A program made the translations under genes and the position numbers. A DNA stretch of 49,376 bases from a virus. Lineage: Duplodnaviria; Heunggongvirae; Uroviricota; Caudoviricetes. The notes below the pieces were generated by a model that saw nothing but the letters and a program-made list of their open reading frames with translations, was not told the DNA's origin and ran no database searches. The stretch is from IMG/VR virus record IMGVR_UViG_2909251562_000001; one strand, given 5' to 3'. Shown here piece by piece: positions 10,676 to 17,640 of this stretch (positions are counted from its first letter, which is position 1; the number at the start of each line of letters is the position of its first letter).

Positions 10676-11230
10676 TCAATTATCTAAAATTGTGCTAAAT
10701 CTTTTTATTACCATTAAGAACGTTATAACAGTGATAAAAAAGGATGCATAGGATAAAAAGCTAACAATATATGCAGGTGCGCGAAAATACCATTTCATTA
10801 AATCTACTGCATTGTCAGGCAGGAAATATATTATCACTGAAAATATAACCAATACTATTGAAGTTAATATTGCATAAGCGACGTTGTGGCATAACTGCTC
10901 ATATATGGTTTTGTTAGTGTTTAATGATATCAATTTGTCTCGGGATTTGTTTCCTTCAATTATGTCTGATATCTTAGTGATGGTTTTTTGTTTTTGTTCA
11001 TAAATCATTATTACTGCACTCATTAATAGTGCTGTTGTAATAGCCCCGAAGTTAACGAAGACGGAAGCAATTGCCGGTTTCATTATTCCGTATGTCCAGC
11101 ACAGAACGAAAGAAAGAGATAACGGAACAATAAAATGTACGATAATGTCGCTCATCAACATTGTTCCACGCTGATCTGACATTGTTTTGTAGTGTTTTAT
11201 TATTACACCCAGCACATTTATTTTATTCAT
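10676..11230 (-). CDS. four-helix integral membrane protein (candidate effector of a two-gene module)
   Basis: 184 aa with four long hydrophobic segments. Its ATG overlaps the upstream gene's stop (ATGA). Very AT-rich. Confidence 0.7.
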   Translation of the reverse strand: MNKINVLGVIIKHYKTMSDQRGTMLMSDIIVHFIVPLSLSFVLCWTYGIMKPAIASVFVNFGAITTALLMSAVIMIYEQKQKTITKISDIIEGNKSRDKLISLNTNKTIYEQLCHNVAYAILTSIVLVIFSVIIYFLPDNAVDLMKWYFRAPAYIVSFLSYASFFITVITFLMVIKRFSTILDN

Positions 11231-12159
11231 ATAATCACCCCTTTGTTTCCGCTATGCAGTTCTAACAATATATCATTAGAAAGGTTTTTTATCGTGTCAT
11301 GAAGTGCTGTTAGATCAGGTATGCCTGTTAATGGGTCGATTTTTAAATCATTATCATCTAACTCTGCGGAAATTCCTTTTTTTAGTATGGTCTCATAATT
11401 GAAAACGACAGTCCGACTGCCGAGTTGTAAGCTTACTTTTATTGCATCACATTTATCTTCAATAATCTCAATGATGTTTCCTATATTCTTGTTTCTTAAA
11501 TCCCTGAAACTTCCGAACATGCCATTGTTTGCTTTTATTATTAAGTCTGTCTTGATGTTTGTTTTGTTTTGACCAAAGGAATCAGCAATGTCTTTTGGTG
11601 CTTTATATCCTTGAGCCTTAATTTGTTTTAATTCGGAATTGAGAATATATTGAGGGATTTTCTTATGATGTAATGGATTGATTCTTGCTTCGAGTTGAAA
11701 TTTGTTTTTTAGATATTCAGTGATAGAATCAGAAAGGACACCTCGAGCAGAAATATTATCGCAAGAGTGGAATGCAATAATTCCTTCTTCAAGGGTGTCT
11801 GGTAGGTATATTAAAATATAACGTTCTTTGAGTGTTACATCATAAGCAGTTGTCCTATAGTGGATTTTTTTGAGTTTTACATCTTTTATTTCACTGCTTT
11901 CTCCATATTTCCCAACTTTTATATAACCATATATAATTTTCTTTGAGTTATCAAAGTGAAGTTTAGCGTGTTGTTCCAGAGATATTTTAGTTTTGGATAC
12001 GCCAAACTCGATAGGGGTGTTTTTATATAGAGTAAAATAATCAACAAAAAGTTCATATGCCGTTTTTTTATTACTTAAACCCAATTCATTAAGTTTTTTG
12101 CTGGCTCGACTGCCTTTATGGGTCAATACGCGGAATGAATAGAAATTAACGCTGTGCAT
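11227..12159 (-). CDS. 310-aa protein of unknown function (candidate sensor/enzyme partner)
   Basis: Long AT-rich ORF, Lys/Ile/Asn-rich, no motif I can recognise by eye; translationally coupled to the downstream membrane protein. Confidence 0.7.
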   Translation of the reverse strand: MHSVNFYSFRVLTHKGSRASKKLNELGLSNKKTAYELFVDYFTLYKNTPIEFGVSKTKISLEQHAKLHFDNSKKIIYGYIKVGKYGESSEIKDVKLKKIHYRTTAYDVTLKERYILIYLPDTLEEGIIAFHSCDNISARGVLSDSITEYLKNKFQLEARINPLHHKKIPQYILNSELKQIKAQGYKAPKDIADSFGQNKTNIKTDLIIKANNGMFGSFRDLRNKNIGNIIEIIEDKCDAIKVSLQLGSRTVVFNYETILKKGISAELDDNDLKIDPLTGIPDLTALHDTIKNLSNDILLELHSGNKGVII

Positions 12160-12585
12160 GAAAAGTCCTTTTGAACATATAGGAGTATACTAGAACATAA
12201 ATAGATGCAATGCATAAAGGAAAAGCTACCGCAGGGCGAACTCACCCACCGATAACTCTTAACTGGTTGTTTGTAAAAGATAATACATAAATTTGGGTCT
12301 GTGTAAAGAGGTAAGCATCGTCAGGGCAAGGGAGATGTGTTAGGCAATATTGGTAAAATTTACGTTGAGGATAAAAACGGTTTGCGGGAAAAGGAGAGTT
12401 AAGTAGAATTGCTGCGGGTGCTTGAGGCTATCTGTCTCAGGCATGAACACCAAAAGGCAGATAGAGAAAAGCCCCAGTTAACATTACGCGTCCTGCAAGA
12501 CGCCTAACATTAATCTGAGGCCCAATCTATGTCTCACAAATGTAGGTTAGCCTCTTACGTGCCGAAAGGCAAGGAGAAGCAGGCT

Positions 12586-12741
12586 ATGAAGCAGCAAAAG
12601 GCGATGTTAATCGCCCTGATCGTCATCTGTTTAACCGTCATAGTGACGGCACTGGTAACGAGGAAAGACCTCTGCGAGGTACGAATCCGAACCGGCCAGA
12701 CGGAGGTCGCTGTCTTCACAGCTTACGAACCTGAGGAGTAA
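12586..12741 (+). CDS. hokD: Hok/Gef-family toxin (HokD/RelF-like)
   Basis: MKQQKAMLIALIVICLTVIVTALVTRKDLCEVRIRTGQTEVAVFTAYEPEE, 51 aa, matches the Hok family signature and E. coli RelF/HokD as recalled. Structured leader upstream. Confidence 0.85.
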   Translation: MKQQKAMLIALIVICLTVIVTALVTRKDLCEVRIRTGQTEVAVFTAYEPEE

Positions 12742-12808
12742 GAGACCAGGCGGGGGCGAAATCCCTCGCCACCTCTGATGTGTCAGGCATCCTCAACGCA
12801 CCCGCACT

Positions 12809-12831
12809 TAACCCGCTTCGGCGGGTTTTTT
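12809..12831 (+). terminator. rho-independent terminator (copy 1 of a 23-bp repeat)
   Basis: TAACCCGCTTCGGCGGGTTTTTT: hairpin plus T-run downstream of hok. Confidence 0.7.
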
Positions 12832-12832
12832 A

Positions 12833-12879
12833 TTGGTTGACAAAATTATGAATATGCACCAATATCTTGGTTGACAAAA
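12833..12879 (+). promoter_or_regulatory. tandem 13-bp direct repeats, each with a TTGACA -35 hexamer
   Basis: TTGGTTGACAAAA at 12833-12845 and again at 12867-12879, just upstream of the cassette's first gene. Confidence 0.4.
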
Positions 12880-12914
12880 GTCGTTTTTTGCACGGATTAG
12901 GCGGAGAAGTGTCT

Positions 12915-13508
12915 ATGCAGAACCATCCATTCCCTTGGGAGTTCTTTCCTGAGTTAACAGAGGAGCGTTTAACCATTATAGCTGAGGAGTTGCTCAGGAT
13001 ACAGGATATTACTCATGAGTTATTGTCATCGCCCTATGATGATAATTACACTCGTGGTGGTTGTACATTTGGGCGTCAGCGGCAGGCGTTGCTACAAATG
13101 TGCGTACGAAAGACATATGACTGGTTAAGACTACTTAATCCTGGCATGGATCTTACGTTTTCAATTGGGAATGTCCCTATTCGTTTCTTTACTGATGACG
13201 CAGATAACCCCAAGAAACGCGGTTTTTTCAAAAGAAATGATGCTGATCGACTCTTTGAGTCAGAGGAGACTACTCCAACTATGCATCGCTTTGTGGTTGA
13301 AAAGCCTGAATTTGAAGGCGAGGGTGGTAGAGTCATTTTTAATGGCTATAACGTGTTTGGTGAGATCGTGTCAACTTGGACATATGGTGCGGACCGTGTT
13401 GTTATGCTGAACTCTGTCGATGATGTACCTCCAGCACCGGTACCTATCGAACTAGAACCTATCAGTGCGTCTAAGACTGAGAAGGAAAAGAAACAAAATA
13501 GCAAATAG
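12915..13508 (+). CDS. 197-aa protein of unknown function (candidate toxin/effector)
   Basis: ATG 12915 preceded by GGCGGAG; no recognisable motif; 10 nt upstream of the XRE/ImmA gene. Confidence 0.6.
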   Translation: MQNHPFPWEFFPELTEERLTIIAEELLRIQDITHELLSSPYDDNYTRGGCTFGRQRQALLQMCVRKTYDWLRLLNPGMDLTFSIGNVPIRFFTDDADNPKKRGFFKRNDADRLFESEETTPTMHRFVVEKPEFEGEGGRVIFNGYNVFGEIVSTWTYGADRVVMLNSVDDVPPAPVPIELEPISASKTEKEKKQNSK

Positions 13509-13518
13509 TGGGTGAAAT

Positions 13519-14640
13519 GTGTTTAACGGTACTAATTTAAGACTTGCTCGTCTGTATCACGAGCTATCTCTGGAGCAGGTTGCTGAGAAGGTTGAAAAAA
13601 CACGCCAGTATGTACAGCGACTGGAGTCTGGTTCAGCTACTCCATCCCCAGAGCTTATAAATAAATTAGCCGAGGTTTTGCGCGTGAAGCCCGCCTTTTT
13701 CGAAGGGCAGGAACATTCTCCTGTTAATGAAGAGATTGTACATTTTCGTAAACGCGCCTCGACAAGGATGTCAACGAAGCTATCAACACTCGCTAAGGCT
13801 GAGTTTTATCGTCGTTTTATTGATGTATTTGAAGATAACCTTAATTTGTCACCTGTTCGATTTCCTGAATTTCGTGTCCATACACAAGAAGATATCGAGC
13901 GAGCGGCAGAAAAATGTCGTATTGAGTGGGGCTTAGGCTTTGGCCCAATTGAAAATATGACTCGCCTTGCCGAGAAACTTGGGGCGTTTGTTACTTCATT
14001 TGACTCCGTTTCGGATGAAGTAGATGCACTGTCTGTTCCTCTACGAAGGCCTTTTATTGTTCGAAATACAGCTAAAAATTCACCTTGTAGGCAACGCTTT
14101 GATATTGCTCATGAGGTTGCCCATTTGATTCTTCATGAAGGAATTTCTACTGGGGATAGATTAACTGAATCCCAGGCAAACCGTTTTGCCTCTGCTCTGT
14201 TGCTTCCCAGAACGTCGATGGCGAAATATTTTCCAAGACCTGTGGGGGGGAGGATAAATTGGCAGGGACTAAGCCAATTTAAGTTGACATGGAAAGTAAG
14301 TAAGGCTGCCATTGTTTACAGGGCTCATCAATTAGGACTTTTGACTGATGAGCAGTACAGAACTGCATTTATGGGGTTGAAACGGAAAGGGGAAGCTATT
14401 GATGAAAAAGAAGATTATCTAATCCCTCATGAGCGTCCTGAGTTATTCCGTCGGGCTTTATCGTTTTTATTTGAAGAGTTAGGATACGACCCACAGCGTA
14501 TAGCTGATGAAATGGATATAGAAGTGGACATTTTTTATGAGTTAGCAGGAGATGATCTTCCTGCGGTTCATGAACTGCCAGGAAGTGGTGATGTTGTTTC
14601 ACTACAATCTTACCGAACTCTTAGAGGCAAAATTCACTAG
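13519..14640 (+). CDS. XRE-family HTH fused to ImmA/IrrE-type zinc metallopeptidase (COG2856-like)
   Basis: N-terminal HTH (LSLEQVAEKVEKTRQYVQRLESG) and HEXXH motif HEVAHLILH in a 373-aa protein. Confidence 0.8.
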   Translation: MFNGTNLRLARLYHELSLEQVAEKVEKTRQYVQRLESGSATPSPELINKLAEVLRVKPAFFEGQEHSPVNEEIVHFRKRASTRMSTKLSTLAKAEFYRRFIDVFEDNLNLSPVRFPEFRVHTQEDIERAAEKCRIEWGLGFGPIENMTRLAEKLGAFVTSFDSVSDEVDALSVPLRRPFIVRNTAKNSPCRQRFDIAHEVAHLILHEGISTGDRLTESQANRFASALLLPRTSMAKYFPRPVGGRINWQGLSQFKLTWKVSKAAIVYRAHQLGLLTDEQYRTAFMGLKRKGEAIDEKEDYLIPHERPELFRRALSFLFEELGYDPQRIADEMDIEVDIFYELAGDDLPAVHELPGSGDVVSLQSYRTLRGKIH

Positions 14641-14643
14641 GCA

Positions 14644-14666
14644 TAACCCGCTTCGGCGGGTTTTTT
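14644..14666 (+). terminator. rho-independent terminator (copy 2 of the 23-bp repeat)
   Basis: Identical TAACCCGCTTCGGCGGGTTTTTT immediately after the XRE/ImmA gene. Confidence 0.7.
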
Positions 14667-14741
14667 GTTTTACGTATTCTGGTTTACAATCTACAGGCCA
14701 GCCTGAACAACTGGCACCTGCTGCGCCAGCAGAGAAAACCG

Positions 14742-15014
14742 ATGGCGCACAATACCAAACATCACAATTCTGATACCGACCTTGCCAGCTGGCACGGGCG
14801 GCGTTCTCATACATTCAAATATGACTGGTACCAGCATGCTCCATGCACTGAAGAACAGGCCGAATGGCTGATTCAGAACTACCGCAGGCGTGGGTACGAC
14901 TTTCAGAAAGACCTCAGCCCTGACTTCCGACACTGGATAATTTCTGTCAGGCTCCCTTATTCCGAACGCCCACCGCGTCCGTCCCGCACATTCCAGCAAC
15001 GCATCTGGAGGTAA
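14742..15014 (+). CDS. hypothetical small protein
   Basis: 90-aa ORF abutting the DUF968 gene (stop and start adjacent); start uncertain. Confidence 0.4.
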   Translation: MAHNTKHHNSDTDLASWHGRRSHTFKYDWYQHAPCTEEQAEWLIQNYRRRGYDFQKDLSPDFRHWIISVRLPYSERPPRPSRTFQQRIWR

Positions 15015-15015
15015 C

Positions 15016-16062
15016 GTGCGGGTATTACTTCGACCTGTTCTGGTGCCGGAACTTGGGGTGGTTATCGTTAAGCCAGGTCGTGAATCCATGCAGGTATTCC
15101 ATAACGGCAGAGTGCTGGTTGAACCGGAGCCAAAAAGCATGCGCGGTCTGCCGTCCGGAGTCGTTCCTGCTGTTCGCCAGCCGCTGGCGGAGGATAAATC
15201 ATTACTGCCATTTTTCAGCGATGAGCGGGTGATTCGTGCTGCTGGTGGTGCTGGTGCATTGTCTGACTGGCTGTTACGCCACGTTAAATCCTGCCAGTGG
15301 CCTCATGGTGACTATCATCACAGTGAAACCGTCATACATCGTTATGGTACCGGCGCAATGGTGTTGTGCTGGCACTGCGACAACCAGCTGCGTGACCAGA
15401 CATCCGAATCACTCGAGCAACTTGCTCATCAAAACCTGTCAGCATGGATGATTGACGTCATACGCCATGCAATGAATGGCACGCAGGAGCGGGAATTATC
15501 GCTGGCTGAATTATCTTGGTGGGCAACCATAAATAACGTAGCGGACGCACTACCGGAGACGGTATTACGTCGTTCGCTGGGATTGCGCGCGGAAAAAATT
15601 CGCTCAGTATACCGCGAGAGCGACATCGTGCCGGGAGAGCAGACTGCCACCAGCATACTGAAGCAGCGCACAAAAAATCTTGCGCCGCTGCCTCACGCCC
15701 ACCAGCAAAACCCGCCACAGGAAAAGACGGTGGTCAGCATTGCTGTTGATCCGGAGTCTCCGGAATCTTTCATGAAACGACCTAAACGTCGCCGCTGGGT
15801 TAACGAGAAATACACACGCTGGGTGAAGACACAGCCGTGTGCGTGTTGTGGTAAGCCAGCCGACGATCCCCATCACCTGATTGGTCATGGTCAGGGCGGA
15901 ATGGGGACAAAATCTCACGATATTTTTACGCTACCGCTGTGTCGGGAGCATCACAACGAGCTTCATGCGGATCCGCTGGCGTTCGAAGAAAAGCATGGTT
16001 CTCAGGTTGATTTAATTTTTCGTTTTCTTGATCACGCCTTTGCAACTGGCGTGCTTGGGTAA
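15016..16062 (+). CDS. DUF968-family phage protein with C-terminal Cys/His (HNH-like) motif
   Basis: 348 aa; C-terminal CACCGKPADDPHHLIGHG...CREHHNELH; resembles Qin YdfU-type proteins (recalled). Confidence 0.65.
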   Translation: MRVLLRPVLVPELGVVIVKPGRESMQVFHNGRVLVEPEPKSMRGLPSGVVPAVRQPLAEDKSLLPFFSDERVIRAAGGAGALSDWLLRHVKSCQWPHGDYHHSETVIHRYGTGAMVLCWHCDNQLRDQTSESLEQLAHQNLSAWMIDVIRHAMNGTQERELSLAELSWWATINNVADALPETVLRRSLGLRAEKIRSVYRESDIVPGEQTATSILKQRTKNLAPLPHAHQQNPPQEKTVVSIAVDPESPESFMKRPKRRRWVNEKYTRWVKTQPCACCGKPADDPHHLIGHGQGGMGTKSHDIFTLPLCREHHNELHADPLAFEEKHGSQVDLIFRFLDHAFATGVLG

Positions 16063-16074
16063 AAGAGGTGACTG

Positions 16075-16434
16075 ATGCTCATAGATTTGGTTTTACCTTA
16101 CCCGCCGACGGTGAACACTTACTGGCGACGCCGTGGCAGCACATATTTTATCTCGGAGGAGGGAAAGCGTTATCGCCGTGATGTGGCGCTTATTGTTCGC
16201 CAGCAGCGACTGAAATTAAAGCTGTCCGGACGGCTGGCGATAAAGGTGATTGCAGAGCCACCGGATAAACGTCGTCGTGACCTGGACAATATCCTGAAAG
16301 CACCACTGGATGCACTGACACATGCGGGGTTGCTTATCGACGACGAGCAGTTTGATGAAATCAATATTGTGCGCGGTCAGCTCGTTCCTGGTGGGCGACT
16401 GGGGATAAAAATCACAGAATTGGGGTGCGCATGA
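16075..16434 (+). CDS. rusA: RusA-family Holliday junction resolvase
   Basis: 119 aa, MLIDLVLPYPPTVNTYW N-terminus and conserved acidic residues (RRDLDNILKAPLDAL). Confidence 0.85.
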   Translation: MLIDLVLPYPPTVNTYWRRRGSTYFISEEGKRYRRDVALIVRQQRLKLKLSGRLAIKVIAEPPDKRRRDLDNILKAPLDALTHAGLLIDDEQFDEINIVRGQLVPGGRLGIKITELGCA

Positions 16435-17120
16435 ATAACCAGTATTTACAGTTTGTGCGTGAGCAGCTCATTATCGCCACCGCTGATTTGAGTGGGGCAA
16501 CAAAAGGTCAGCTTGAAGCCTGGCAGGAGAATGCCATGTTTGATACAGGGCGTTACAGGCGTAAAAAAATCCGGTACCGAGATGAAGTGACCGGAAAAAT
16601 GATTACGCGGGATAATCCACCAATCCCGGGGAAACAATCGCTGGCGAAGGGGACGTCAATTCCTCTGGTCAGTCCGGTTGAGTTTTCGACATCATCGTGG
16701 CGGCGGGCTGTTCTGTCTCTTGAAGAACATCATAAAGCCTGGTTGTTATGGTGTTACAGCGGGAGTATTTGTTGGGAATATCAGATCGCGATAACACAGT
16801 GGGCGTGGAATGAATTTAATACTCAATCCGGTACCAGAAAAATTGCAGGGAAAACGCAGGAACGCCTGAAAAAATTAATCTGGCTGGCGGCGCAGGCAGT
16901 AAAAGCAGAACTTTTTGGTGGGGAAGGTTATGAATACCAGGAGCTGGCATTACTGGCGGGAGTGACAACTAAAAACTGGTCCAAAACATTTACTCGTCAC
17001 TGGGTTGCAATGAAACACATTTTTCACCGACTGGATAGTGAGGCTTTATTGTTTGTAATGAGAACACGTTCAAAACAAAAGGCGGCATTTTCAAAGCAAA
17101 GTGTTGCAAAAGTAGATTGA
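16425..17120 (+). CDS. late-gene antiterminator Q-like protein
   Basis: 231 aa, overlaps the rusA stop; positioned just upstream of a terminator and the lysis genes. Confidence 0.65.
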   Translation: MRMNNQYLQFVREQLIIATADLSGATKGQLEAWQENAMFDTGRYRRKKIRYRDEVTGKMITRDNPPIPGKQSLAKGTSIPLVSPVEFSTSSWRRAVLSLEEHHKAWLLWCYSGSICWEYQIAITQWAWNEFNTQSGTRKIAGKTQERLKKLIWLAAQAVKAELFGGEGYEYQELALLAGVTTKNWSKTFTRHWVAMKHIFHRLDSEALLFVMRTRSKQKAAFSKQSVAKVD

Positions 17121-17210: not shown

Positions 17211-17330
17211 GTGCCACTTATCTCGGATAGAAATGGTGAATGCGCTGGTGGAGGAAGTAAGGGTAATTTTTAACCAGGTGATTCTTGAATGCTTGCAACA
17301 TTTATTTCGTAACGTTATTATCCTGCGCCC

Positions 17331-17406
17331 GGCCCTTTAGCTCAGTGGTGAGAGCGAGCGACTCATAATCGCCAGGTCGCTGGTTCAAATCCAGCAAGGG
17401 CCACCA
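17331..17406 (+). tRNA. tRNA with CAU anticodon (Ile2 lysidine-type or Met)
   Basis: 76 nt with encoded CCA; 7-bp acceptor stem GGCCCTT/AAGGGCC; anticodon loop CUCAUAA; closely resembles E. coli ileX as recalled. Confidence 0.85.
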
Positions 17407-17407
17407 A

Positions 17408-17484
17408 CCGTCACCAGTTCATCAGGAAAGAGCGTCAACCCTTTAAGTTGAGTGTGCGAGGTTCGAGTCCCCGGTGGCGGTCCA
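17408..17484 (+). tRNA. atypical tRNA-like gene (anticodon loop CCUUUAA, possibly Lys-UUU)
   Basis: 77 nt ending in CCA; acceptor CCGTCAC/GTGGCGG (one G-U pair); T-arm with TTCGAGT loop; anticodon stem TCAAC/GTTGA. Position 33 is C rather than U and the 5' nucleotide is C. Confidence 0.4.
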
Positions 17485-17486
17485 GT

Positions 17487-17562
<76 letters not shown>

Positions 17563-17565
17563 TAT

Positions 17566-17640
<75 letters not shown>

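What the first reader, a model, noticed from the sequence alone, without database searches (positions are those of the whole stretch)
12809..14666. Identical 23-bp terminator repeats bracket the two-gene cassette
The sequence TAACCCGCTTCGGCGGGTTTTTT occurs at 12809-12831 (after hok) and again at 14644-14666 (after the XRE/ImmA gene). The cassette looks like it was inserted, or is exchangeable, by recombination between terminator copies. Terminator-flanked cassettes of this kind are a recurring way that morons move between lambdoid phages.
Basis: seen in the sequence. Interest (0 to 1): 0.6.

Follow-up and report, generated by a model that had tools for sequence, protein, structure and literature searches.

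The report
Defence cassette inserted at hok terminator
Two identical 23-base transcription terminators bracket a known anti-phage toxin-antitoxin cassette (RosmerTA) inserted right after the hokD gene of a lambda-like prophage, and at least four other accessory cassettes occupy the same spot in related prophages, each ending in the same terminator core, so this terminator looks like a recurrent joint for swapping accessory genes.

Summary
TAACCCGCTTCGGCGGGTTTTTT occurs exactly twice in the window (12809-12831 and 14644-14666), where chance predicts none, and both copies are intrinsic-terminator hairpins.

The left copy is the 3' hairpin of the hokD transcript. The right copy ends a two-gene RosmerTA defence operon (RmrT 12915-13508, RmrA 13519-14640) with its own tandem promoter/operator repeats.

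Related prophages carry one terminator copy and no cassette. Strain TUM1880 has the window's exact flanking allele. The cassette plus one copy is therefore an insertion.

At least four other cassettes sit at the same point: a second RosmerTA, an HTH + M78 pair, Phd/Doc, and a lipoprotein. Each is followed by the same 14-nt core, CCCGCTTCGGCGGG. In 835 kb of hok-carrying phage DNA the core occurs only at these two kinds of position.

The exact 21-mer also recurs in about 36 unrelated phage contexts. Relatives of three cassette families carry core-type terminators away from hok. The terminator therefore travels with cassettes and is not unique.

Best reading: short-homology recombination inside a shared terminator, resembling the PeSL cassettes of T4-like phages. 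The mechanism is inferred, not shown. The components are known; the terminator-bounded hotspot appears undescribed. Interest is moderate.

The parts
12529..12741 (+). hok/mok locus. The mok-frame ORF spans 12529-12741. hokD is annotated at 12586-12741 in the identical RefSeq region.
   Evidence: Pfam HOK_GEF, 3e-23. RefSeq annotates hokD in L002, which is 100% identical to the window here.
12742..12808 (+). hokD 3' UTR. It is conserved in all hok-context loci and stays attached to the left terminator even where hokD itself is missing (L011).
12809..12831 (+). Left copy of the 23-mer: the Rho-independent terminator hairpin of the hokD transcript (stem 12810-12827, T-run 12826-12831). It is the only copy in empty sites.
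12833..12896 (+). The cassette's own promoter/operator region. It holds two tandem repeats, TTGGTTGACAAAA-N9-TGCAC, at 12833 and 12867 (34-bp spacing). Each contains TTGACA (12837-12842 and 12871-12876). A candidate -10, CAATAT, lies at 12860-12865.
   Evidence: families D5 and D1. The same tandem GTTGACAAA..TGCAC pair precedes rmrT in most of the Enterobacterales relatives examined. That RmrA binds here is an inference.
12915..13508 (+). rmrT, the RosmerTA toxin (197 aa).
   Evidence: PADLOC RmrT PDLC03929, 5.5e-93, full length. phrog_5786. No Pfam match.
13519..14640 (+). rmrA, the RosmerTA antitoxin (373 aa): an N-terminal XRE helix-turn-helix and a Peptidase_M78 (ImmA/IrrE) domain.
   Evidence: PADLOC RmrA PDLC03943, 8e-201. 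Pfam HTH_3 1.5e-12 and Peptidase_M78 8e-17.
14644..14666 (+). Right copy of the 23-mer: the terminator of the rmrTA operon, 3 nt after the stop codon. From the hairpin core onward it is continuous with the flank seen in empty sites.
   Evidence: Relatives of the cassette carry their own terminator of the same type after rmrA.
14667..14741 (+). Promoter-like element (TTTACA at 14683-14688) and the conserved leader GCCAGCCTGAACAACTGGCACCTGCTGC of the downstream module. In empty sites this follows the single terminator directly.
14742..16062 (+). Downstream module: a Rem-like 90-aa ORF (14742-15014) and the DUF968 ydfU homologue (15016-16062). RusA (16075-16434) and antiterminator Q (16425-17120) follow.

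Best explanation
The two 23-mers are two working Rho-independent terminators.

The left one ends the hokD (hok/sok-type) transcript. The right one ends a self-contained, probably autoregulated RosmerTA operon: promoter/operator repeats, the rmrT toxin, and the rmrA XRE-M78 antitoxin. This operon was inserted exactly at the T-tract of the hokD terminator, in the nin region of a lambdoid prophage, upstream of rem-like/ydfU/rusA/Q.

The insertion is shown. How it happened is inferred. The cassette carried a terminator with the same 14-nt core (CCCGCTTCGGCGGG) as the hokD terminator. It was joined to the phage by short-homology recombination within that terminator. This could have been a single crossover with a circularised cassette, or two successive single crossovers between collinear phages that each had a core-type terminator at a module boundary. 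Either route leaves a direct repeat: the left arm of hokD's terminator, then the core, then the cassette, then the cassette's own left arm, then the core, then the resident right flank.

The same joint has been used repeatedly, so the hokD terminator acts as a hotspot where TA and defence morons are inserted and exchanged.

Functionally (inferred), the left copy keeps the hok mRNA 3' end intact. The right copy stops lysogen-expressed rmrTA transcription from running into the genes leading to the late-gene antiterminator Q.
For: Insertion:
- Empty sites have one copy flanked by the window's left and right flanks (L001 and L006).
- L091 has the identical alleles.
- 17 of 43 hok-context IMG/VR loci are empty.
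- 2753 of 5426 complete E. coli genomes link the two flanks within about 0.7 kb (an upper bound on empty sites). Only 22 carry the cassette, all at 99.5% identity or more.
- Cassette GC is 42-45%, against 52-55% in the flanks.

Identity of the cassette:
- PADLOC RmrT 5.5e-93 and RmrA 8e-201.
- RosmerTA is an experimentally validated defence TA with a Zn-peptidase antitoxin (Millman et al., bioRxiv 10.1101/2022.05.11.491447).

Recurrent joint:
- Four other cassettes sit at the same point, each followed by the core.
- RosmerTA-B is only 43% (RmrA) and 24% (RmrT) identical in amino acids to the window's proteins, while the hok flank is 87% identical in DNA over about 180 bp. This argues for independent occupancy.
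- In 78 hok-context loci (835 kb, about 290 predicted simple terminators) the core occurs only at the hok terminator (78 times) and at cassette right ends (18 loci). It occurs nowhere else.

Crossover inside the terminator:
- Right-hand copies have different 5' arms (TAA, ATA, AAA, AAA, ATA), but from the core onward they match resident flank alleles.
- In L011 and L019 the cassette differs from the window at 5-6 sites in 1.8 kb. Divergence then jumps to 13-14 differences in the next 75 bp, starting inside the T-tract of the right terminator.
- The same Doc cassette occurs without hok upstream but still has core + rem-like leader downstream (L246, L247).
- A lipoprotein relative in a non-hok phage is preceded by a core terminator and a homologous leader (L357).

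Cassette-borne terminators:
- rmrTA relatives in P2-like and other contexts end in ATCCCGCTTCGGCGGGAT-TTTT (L008, L047).
- Doc relatives end in TAACCCGCTTCGGCGGGTTTTTTT.

Precedent: PeSL promoter/stem-loop cassettes and their mini-circles in T4-like phages (PMC2839356).
Against: - No recombination intermediate or event is observed. Everything is inferred from end-products.
- The perfectly shared block is 14-23 nt. That is below the roughly 30 bp quoted as the minimum for Red-beta recombination (PMC3945230).
- The exact 21-mer occurs in about 36 mutually unrelated phage contexts with GC from 39% to 64%. This hairpin is therefore reached convergently, and identity alone does not prove common origin.
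- The closest rmrTA relatives (77% aa) have ATCCCG...CGGGAT stems, not AACCCGC...GCGGGTT. The window's right copy needs either two compensatory changes or templating by the hok copy.
- This particular cassette was found only in the hok context: 22 genomes, 11 viral contigs and 3 metagenome contigs. Its donor arrangement is unknown.
- Two other inserts at the site, rem and an AT-rich segment, lack a second copy.
Confidence: 0.6

Rival explanations
1. Convergence plus 'safe harbour' selection. Each moron evolved or brought its own strong terminator: a GC stem with a UUCG tetraloop. The space just after the hokD terminator is simply a tolerated place where random illegitimate insertions survive. 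On this view the identity of the copies is coincidental and plays no part in recombination.
For: - The exact 21-mer occurs in about 36 unrelated phage contexts.
- Relatives of rmrTA and phd/doc carry core-type terminators in non-hok contexts.
- Inserts without a second copy exist at the same place: rem and an AT-rich segment.
- The debate between illegitimate recombination with selection and limited-homology recombination is unresolved for phage mosaicism (PMC3945230).
Against: - None of the roughly 194 other predicted terminators in 835 kb of the same phages has the core, yet all five cassettes do.
- Junctions fall within the hairpin or T-tract to within a few nucleotides.
- There is a sharp divergence breakpoint inside the right terminator in L011 and L019.
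- The closing base pair of the window's right copy matches hok's version rather than its relatives'.
Confidence: 0.22
2. Replication-based copy-choice. A polymerase stalls at the terminator hairpin, switches to a donor template, and switches back at the donor's similar hairpin, which duplicates the terminator.
For: - Hairpins with T-runs are classic sites of template switching (established knowledge).
- The product anatomy (direct repeat, variable arm sequences) is the same as for crossover.
Against: End-products cannot distinguish this from break-join recombination. Nothing here specifically favours it.
Confidence: 0.1
3. Target-site duplication by a trans-acting hairpin-specific enzyme, such as an HUH/IS200-like transposase, an integron-like integrase or an IS110-type recombinase, that inserts cassettes at the terminator.
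For: Direct repeats flank the insert, and the target forms a hairpin.
Against: - No transposase or integrase gene lies in any of the five cassettes.
- The repeated length varies from 13 to 23 nt, and the 5' arms of the right copies differ.
- The cassettes have no terminal inverted repeats.
Confidence: 0.05

Closest known systems
RosmerTA (RmrT/RmrA) anti-phage toxin-antitoxin system (Millman et al. 2022)
   Same: It is a two-gene operon with an upstream toxin of unknown fold and a downstream antitoxin that has an XRE HTH and a Zn-peptidase M78 domain. Both proteins match the PADLOC RmrT and RmrA models over their full length.
   Different: Nothing about the proteins differs. What is new here is the genomic setting: the nin region of a lambdoid prophage, at the hokD terminator. 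Relatives sit in P2-like hotspots and in other lambdoid positions.
Morons of lambdoid phages: promoter-gene-terminator units inserted between genes that are adjacent in related phages (Juhala/Hendrix concept, cited from my own knowledge)
   Same: It has its own promoter-like region and its own terminator. It is absent from otherwise collinear relatives. Its GC content differs from the flanks.
   Different: The moron concept does not require the moron's terminator to be identical to the resident terminator at the insertion point. It also does not predict that several unrelated morons at one site would share the same terminator core.
PeSL (promoter-early stem-loop) mobile regulatory cassettes and mini-circles of T4-like phages (Arbiol et al. 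2010, PMC2839356)
   Same: A repeated regulatory element containing a terminator stem-loop flanks an accessory gene. The genome lacking the gene has a single copy. Both are interpreted as recombination between the repeats, possibly through a circle. In both, the terminator is proposed to prevent spill-over into late genes.
   Different: PeSLs are about 100 bp and include a consensus sigma-70 promoter. They are numerous per genome and occur in lytic T4-like phages. Here the shared block is only 14-23 nt and consists of the terminator alone. It occurs once or twice per genome, in temperate lambdoid prophages. Circles have not been looked for.
Prophage and satellite defence hotspots (P2/P4; Rousset et al. 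2022, PMC9122126)
   Same: A fixed position in a temperate phage genome holds alternative defence or TA cassettes. A 70%-identical rmrTA cassette sits in the P2-type position between the replication endonuclease and the portal gene (L008).
   Different: The hotspot is in a different phage family and at a different locus. Here the boundary is a specific terminator hairpin that is repeated on the far side of each cassette. The P2/P4 paper that I word-searched does not contain the word 'terminator'.

Membership tests
RosmerTA defence system | Antitoxin with an XRE-type HTH and a Zn-peptidase (M78/ImmA-IrrE) domain | tested here: met
   Pfam HTH_3 1.5e-12 and Peptidase_M78 8.3e-17. PADLOC RmrA PDLC03943, 8.2e-201, covering 1-368 of 370.
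RosmerTA defence system | Adjacent upstream toxin gene of the RmrT family in the same operon | tested here: met
   PADLOC RmrT PDLC03929, 5.5e-93, covering 1-197 of 198. The gap to rmrA is 10 nt on the same strand.
RosmerTA defence system | Protection against phage infection, and toxicity when the antitoxin is removed | not testable with these tools
   This requires plaque assays and deletion mutants, as in Millman et al..
Lambdoid moron | Absent from otherwise collinear relatives, so that the flanking genes are adjacent | tested here: met
   Empty sites L001, L006 and L091, plus 17 IMG/VR loci.
Lambdoid moron | Own promoter and own terminator | tested here: met
   Terminator at 14644-14666. 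TTGACA-17-CAATAT plus tandem operator-like repeats, conserved in most of the relatives examined. Promoter activity itself was not measured.
Lambdoid moron | Base composition different from the surrounding phage genes | tested here: met
   42-45% GC against 52-55%.
PeSL-type mobile regulatory cassette | Direct repeats of a regulatory element flank the accessory gene, with a single element in genomes lacking it | tested here: met
PeSL-type mobile regulatory cassette | The repeated element is about 100 bp and includes a consensus promoter as well as the stem-loop | tested here: not met
   Identity is limited to 23 nt (26 nt at 96%). Downstream, only TGGTT[G/T]ACAA is shared, and it is offset by 11 nt.
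PeSL-type mobile regulatory cassette | Circular excision products (mini-circles) | not testable with these tools
   This needs outward-facing PCR on induced lysogens or phage DNA.
Transposon / IS with target-site duplication | Transposase gene, terminal inverted repeats and a fixed-length duplication | tested here: not met
   There is no such gene in the cassettes, no terminal inverted repeats, and the repeated length varies from 13 to 23 nt.
hok/sok type I toxin-antitoxin (left neighbour) | Hok/Gef family toxin ORF with an overlapping mok frame and a structured 3' UTR ending in a terminator | tested here: met
   HOK_GEF, 3e-23. RefSeq annotates hokD. The 3' UTR folds at -33.9 kcal/mol with a terminal hairpin. 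The Sok antisense RNA was not examined.

The most novel reading that the evidence does not exclude
The hairpin CCCGCTTCGGCGGG plus its T-tract works as a portable, enzyme-independent 'attachment site'. Promoter-gene-terminator units excise as mini-circles by recombination between the flanking terminator copies. They then reintegrate at any resident terminator with the same core. Phage single-strand-annealing recombinases would catalyse this. The result would be an integron-like, integrase-free cassette exchange system that shuttles TA and defence genes among lambdoid, and perhaps P2-like, prophages of Enterobacteria.
Probability: 0.25. Interest if true: 0.75.

Novelty: new variant of a known kind. 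Interest (0 to 1): 0.5.

Why it matters
If terminator hairpins with a shared core are preferred joints for inserting and exchanging accessory cassettes, three things follow.

1. It gives a concrete, testable sequence-level mechanism for an old question in phage mosaicism: limited-homology recombination versus random illegitimate joining followed by selection.

2. It defines a new, easily searched hotspot in lambdoid prophages: the interval between the hokD terminator and the rem-like/ydfU module. Uncharacterised occupants of this interval are candidate defence or exclusion genes. Examples are the 130-aa lipoprotein and the HTH + M78 pair with a Cys-rich small ORF.

3. It explains why such cassettes must end in a strong terminator. 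They lie just upstream of the late-gene antiterminator Q.

The cassette itself (RosmerTA) and the hok locus are ordinary, known elements.

Tried and rejected
- I looked for this exact cassette in any non-hok context: complete E. coli genomes, phages, plasmids, IMG/VR with three junction or internal patterns and metagenomes. All 36 occurrences have the hok 3' UTR and terminator on the left, so the donor arrangement could not be recovered.
- I asked whether flanking direct repeats are a general property of the rmrTA family. In the Enterobacterales relatives examined, no shared word of 11 nt or more occurs between the 400 nt upstream and the 400 nt downstream. This idea is rejected.
- I asked whether rem (K-12 Qin type) and the AT-rich insert have a second terminator copy. 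They do not.
- I considered a transposon or target-site-duplication model. I rejected it because of the variable repeat length, the absence of a transposase and the absence of inverted repeats.
- I first read the 'truncated' left copy of the lipoprotein cassette as a crossover in the middle of the hairpin. L357 shows it is more simply a 2-nt deletion variant of a full core terminator followed by a homologous leader.
- I considered that the shared TGGTT[G/T]ACAA after both copies extends the repeat. The match is 10 of 17 with an 11-nt offset and is explained by both being -35 regions. I did not pursue it.
- The literature searches I ran for a described hokD-terminator hotspot returned no paper on one, judged from titles and abstracts. 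The one P2/P4 hotspot paper I word-searched does not contain the word 'terminator'.
Full report
OBSERVATION

The 23-mer TAACCCGCTTCGGCGGGTTTTTT is present exactly at 12809-12831 and 14644-14666 (+ strand). No other site in the 49,376-bp window matches it with up to three mismatches, and 100 shuffles gave none. Identity ends at the borders of the 23-mer. The sequence before it is cact on the left and ggca on the right. The base after it is A on the left and G on the right (26 nt at 96%).

Both copies are textbook intrinsic terminators: a 7-bp stem with 5 G-C pairs, a TTCG loop and a T-run. They fold at -12.6 and -13.5 kcal/mol as RNA.

WHAT LIES BETWEEN AND AROUND THE COPIES

- Left of the first copy is a hok/mok locus (HOK_GEF, 3e-23). 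In strain 67-1, whose sequence is 100% identical to the window here, RefSeq annotates hokD at the equivalent of 12586-12741.
- Between the copies lie two tandem repeats, TTGGTTGACAAAA-N9-TGCAC (12833 and 12867), each containing TTGACA.
- These are followed by a 197-aa ORF (12915-13508) and a 373-aa ORF (13519-14640).
- The 373-aa protein has HTH_3 and Peptidase_M78 domains.
- Both proteins match the PADLOC models for the RosmerTA system over their full length: RmrT 5.5e-93 and RmrA 8.2e-201. RosmerTA is a published anti-phage toxin-antitoxin system whose antitoxin carries a Zn-peptidase (bioRxiv 10.1101/2022.05.11.491447).
- Right of the second copy come a promoter-like TTTACA, a conserved leader, a Rem-like 90-aa ORF, DUF968/ydfU, rusA and the antiterminator Q. 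This is the nin region of a lambdoid prophage.
- The cassette is 42-45% GC, against 52-55% in the flanks.

THE CASSETTE PLUS ONE COPY IS AN INSERTION

A megablast of the region against 5,426 complete E. coli genomes found the whole arrangement in 21 genomes. The cassette alone is in 22, all at 99.5% identity or more. Thousands of genomes have hokD and the rem-like/DUF968 genes about 0.9 kb apart.

Reading those sites shows one terminator copy. It has the window's left flank on one side and the window's right flank on the other (L001 and L006).

I built an 'empty-site' query from the two flanks joined at one copy. It is covered at 80% or more in 2,753 genomes. This is an upper bound on true empty sites, because the tool joins pieces up to about 0.7 kb apart.

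Strain TUM1880 (L091) carries precisely the window's alleles: cact-TAACCCGCTTCGGCGGGTTTTTT-gttttacgtattctggtttacaat, with a single copy. Among 43 hok-context contigs sampled from IMG/VR, 17 are empty.

THE SAME JOINT IS USED BY OTHER CASSETTES

Downstream of the hokD terminator the sequence is hypervariable. Besides empty sites I found:
- the K-12 Qin-type rem gene;
- an AT-rich non-coding segment;
- a direct junction to a DUF1367/ninB-type module.

I also found four further cassettes, each followed by a second copy of the terminator core CCCGCTTCGGCGGG:
- A second, very different RosmerTA pair (L148, L102, L107). It matches RmrT at 4.6e-25 and RmrA at 6e-105, but is only 24% and 43% identical in amino acids to the window's proteins.
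- An HTH + Peptidase_M78 two-gene unit (L131).
- A Phd/Doc (Fic family) toxin-antitoxin (L141, L145). It is present with its flanks in 94 complete genomes.
- A 130-aa lipoprotein-like gene (L092, L093), present in 255 genomes.

The right-hand copies have different 5' arms: gcaTAA, gtATA, caAAA, gaAAA and gcATA. From the core onward they continue into one of the resident right-flank alleles.

IS THE MOTIF JUST COMMON?

Across databases, yes. Of the 79 fetched, about 36 are in mutually unrelated contexts with GC contents of 39-64%. This hairpin is therefore reached repeatedly, and identity alone is weak evidence.

Within the relevant phages, no. In 78 hok-context loci (835 kb, about 290 simple predicted terminators on both strands) the core occurs 78 times at the hok terminator. 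It occurs at the right end of a cassette in 18 loci. It never occurs anywhere else. All five cassettes at this site sharing a core that none of the other roughly 194 terminators has is not what independent convergence predicts.

THE TERMINATOR TRAVELS WITH CASSETTES

Relatives of the window's rmrTA (67-77% amino-acid identity) occur in Klebsiella, Salmonella, Providencia, Pectobacterium, Yersinia, Photorhabdus and others. They sit in other lambdoid positions or in the P2-type position between the replication endonuclease and the portal gene.
- Most of them keep the tandem GTTGACAAA..TGCAC operator pair, and those examined have their own terminator after rmrA.
- Several of these terminators have the same core: L008 AATCCCGCTTCGGCGGGATTTTTTT, and L047.
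- None has flanking repeats.

Doc relatives (69-76% identity) in non-hok phages often end in ...TATAACCCGCTTCGGCGGGTTTTTTT.

The same Doc cassette also occurs without hok upstream. It is still joined through the core to the rem-like leader (L246, L247).

A lipoprotein relative in a non-hok phage is preceded by a core terminator plus a leader homologous to the one in the hok context (L357). This is the donor-like arrangement that a crossover inside the terminator requires.

BREAKPOINTS

Among 11 IMG/VR contigs, 3 metagenome contigs and 22 genomes the cassette is nearly invariant, but the backgrounds differ.
- In L011 and L019 the cassette differs from the window at 5-6 positions in 1.8 kb.
- Divergence then rises to 13-14 differences in the next 75 bp, starting inside the T-tract of the right terminator at 14663.
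- In L011 the left homology starts only 55 bp before the left terminator, and hokD itself is absent.

MECHANISM

Shown:
- this is an insertion;
- there are two terminator hairpins;
- the site is used recurrently;
- cassettes share the core;
- junctions and one divergence breakpoint lie inside the terminator.

Inferred:
- Joining occurred by short-homology recombination within the terminator. This could be a single crossover with a circular cassette, or two successive single crossovers between collinear phages with core-type terminators at module boundaries.

The published precedent is the PeSL system of T4-like phages. There, promoter + stem-loop elements flank ORFans, a single element marks the empty genome, and mini-circles were detected (PMC2839356).

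Weak points:
- The perfectly shared block is only 14-23 nt, whereas about 30 bp is quoted as the Red-beta minimum (PMC3945230).
- The donor of this particular cassette was not found.
- The stem-closing pair of the window's right copy (A...T) matches hok's version rather than the T...A of the cassette's relatives. This needs either templating by the hok copy or two compensatory changes.

I put 0.6 on the recombination-at-terminator reading and 0.22 on convergence plus safe-harbour selection. The remainder goes to copy-choice or a trans-acting enzyme.

FUNCTION OF THE ARRANGEMENT (INFERENCE)

Inserting after the hok terminator leaves the hok mRNA 3' end intact. The cassette is presumably expressed in the lysogen from its own autoregulated promoter. 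Its terminator would prevent read-through towards rusA and Q, and so towards the late genes.

NOVELTY

RosmerTA, hok loci, morons and prophage defence hotspots are all known. I did not find a description of the hokD terminator as a hotspot whose occupants all end in the same terminator core. I classify it as a new variant of a known kind: regulatory-element-bounded cassette shuffling, previously documented for T4-like PeSLs. It is moderately interesting, mainly because it is directly testable.

Noticed in passing
window 10676-12159 (- strand): Two overlapping minus-strand genes (184 aa, with several hydrophobic stretches, and 310 aa) lie in a 30-34% GC island immediately left of the hok locus. 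They have no Pfam or PADLOC match, only the unknown-function families phrog_15250 and phrog_15676. They are absent from the corresponding position in L001. This looks like another moron, possibly a defence or exclusion pair.
   Followed up: partly
window 12812-14647 versus L148 3366-5201: The two RosmerTA variants are only 43% (RmrA) and 24% (RmrT) identical in amino acids, with gene lengths of 197+373 aa against 216+367 aa. Yet both have exactly the same core-to-core distance of 1835 bp. This may be coincidence or a constraint; I have no explanation.
   Followed up: no
window 12833-12896; most of the relatives L007-L009, L021-L035 and L047: A tandem pair of GTTGACAAA-N9-TGCAC(C) elements, 34 bp apart, precedes rmrT in most of the relatives examined. 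It is presumably the RmrA HTH operator overlapping the promoter. The window's cassette lacks the 25-70-nt conserved leader (…gctgtaaaaattaacaggggtta) that precedes the first element in several relatives.
   Followed up: partly
L011 (IMGVR_UViG_2529292883_000004), equivalent to window ~12753: Here hokD is missing. Unrelated sequence (…cccttaagttagcgcttatgg) abuts the last 55 bp of the hok 3' UTR, then the terminator and the cassette. This may be the end of an IS element or a deletion joint.
   Followed up: no
window 14698-14741; L006 3498-3520: The leader GCCAGCCTGAACAACTGGCACCTGCTGC downstream of the site is itself a conserved boundary. In L006 it continues into a DUF1367/DUF1364/DUF1133 (ninB-type) module instead of rem-like/ydfU. 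It is therefore a second mosaic joint about 40-70 bp from the terminator.
   Followed up: no
L131 (reverse-complement orientation) 12380-12530: The HTH + M78 cassette carries an extra unannotated small Cys-rich ORF (MAMGTCRKCGCPCEIIF…CSCSGKHAA) between its own first terminator-like hairpin and the core terminator.
   Followed up: no
window ~17330-17640 and ~19400 onward (from the L002 annotation): Three tRNA genes (Ile, Thr, Gly) lie downstream of Q. An IS66-like ISCro1 transposase lies just after the lysis genes in the identical RefSeq region.
   Followed up: no
Hosts of the 22 cassette-positive genomes: Several carriers have names that I recognise, from my own knowledge, as enterotoxigenic E. 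coli: TW11681, TW10598, B2C, UMNF18, ETEC4090 and O6:H16 2011EL-1370-2. The cassette-bearing prophage may be lineage-associated.
   Followed up: no
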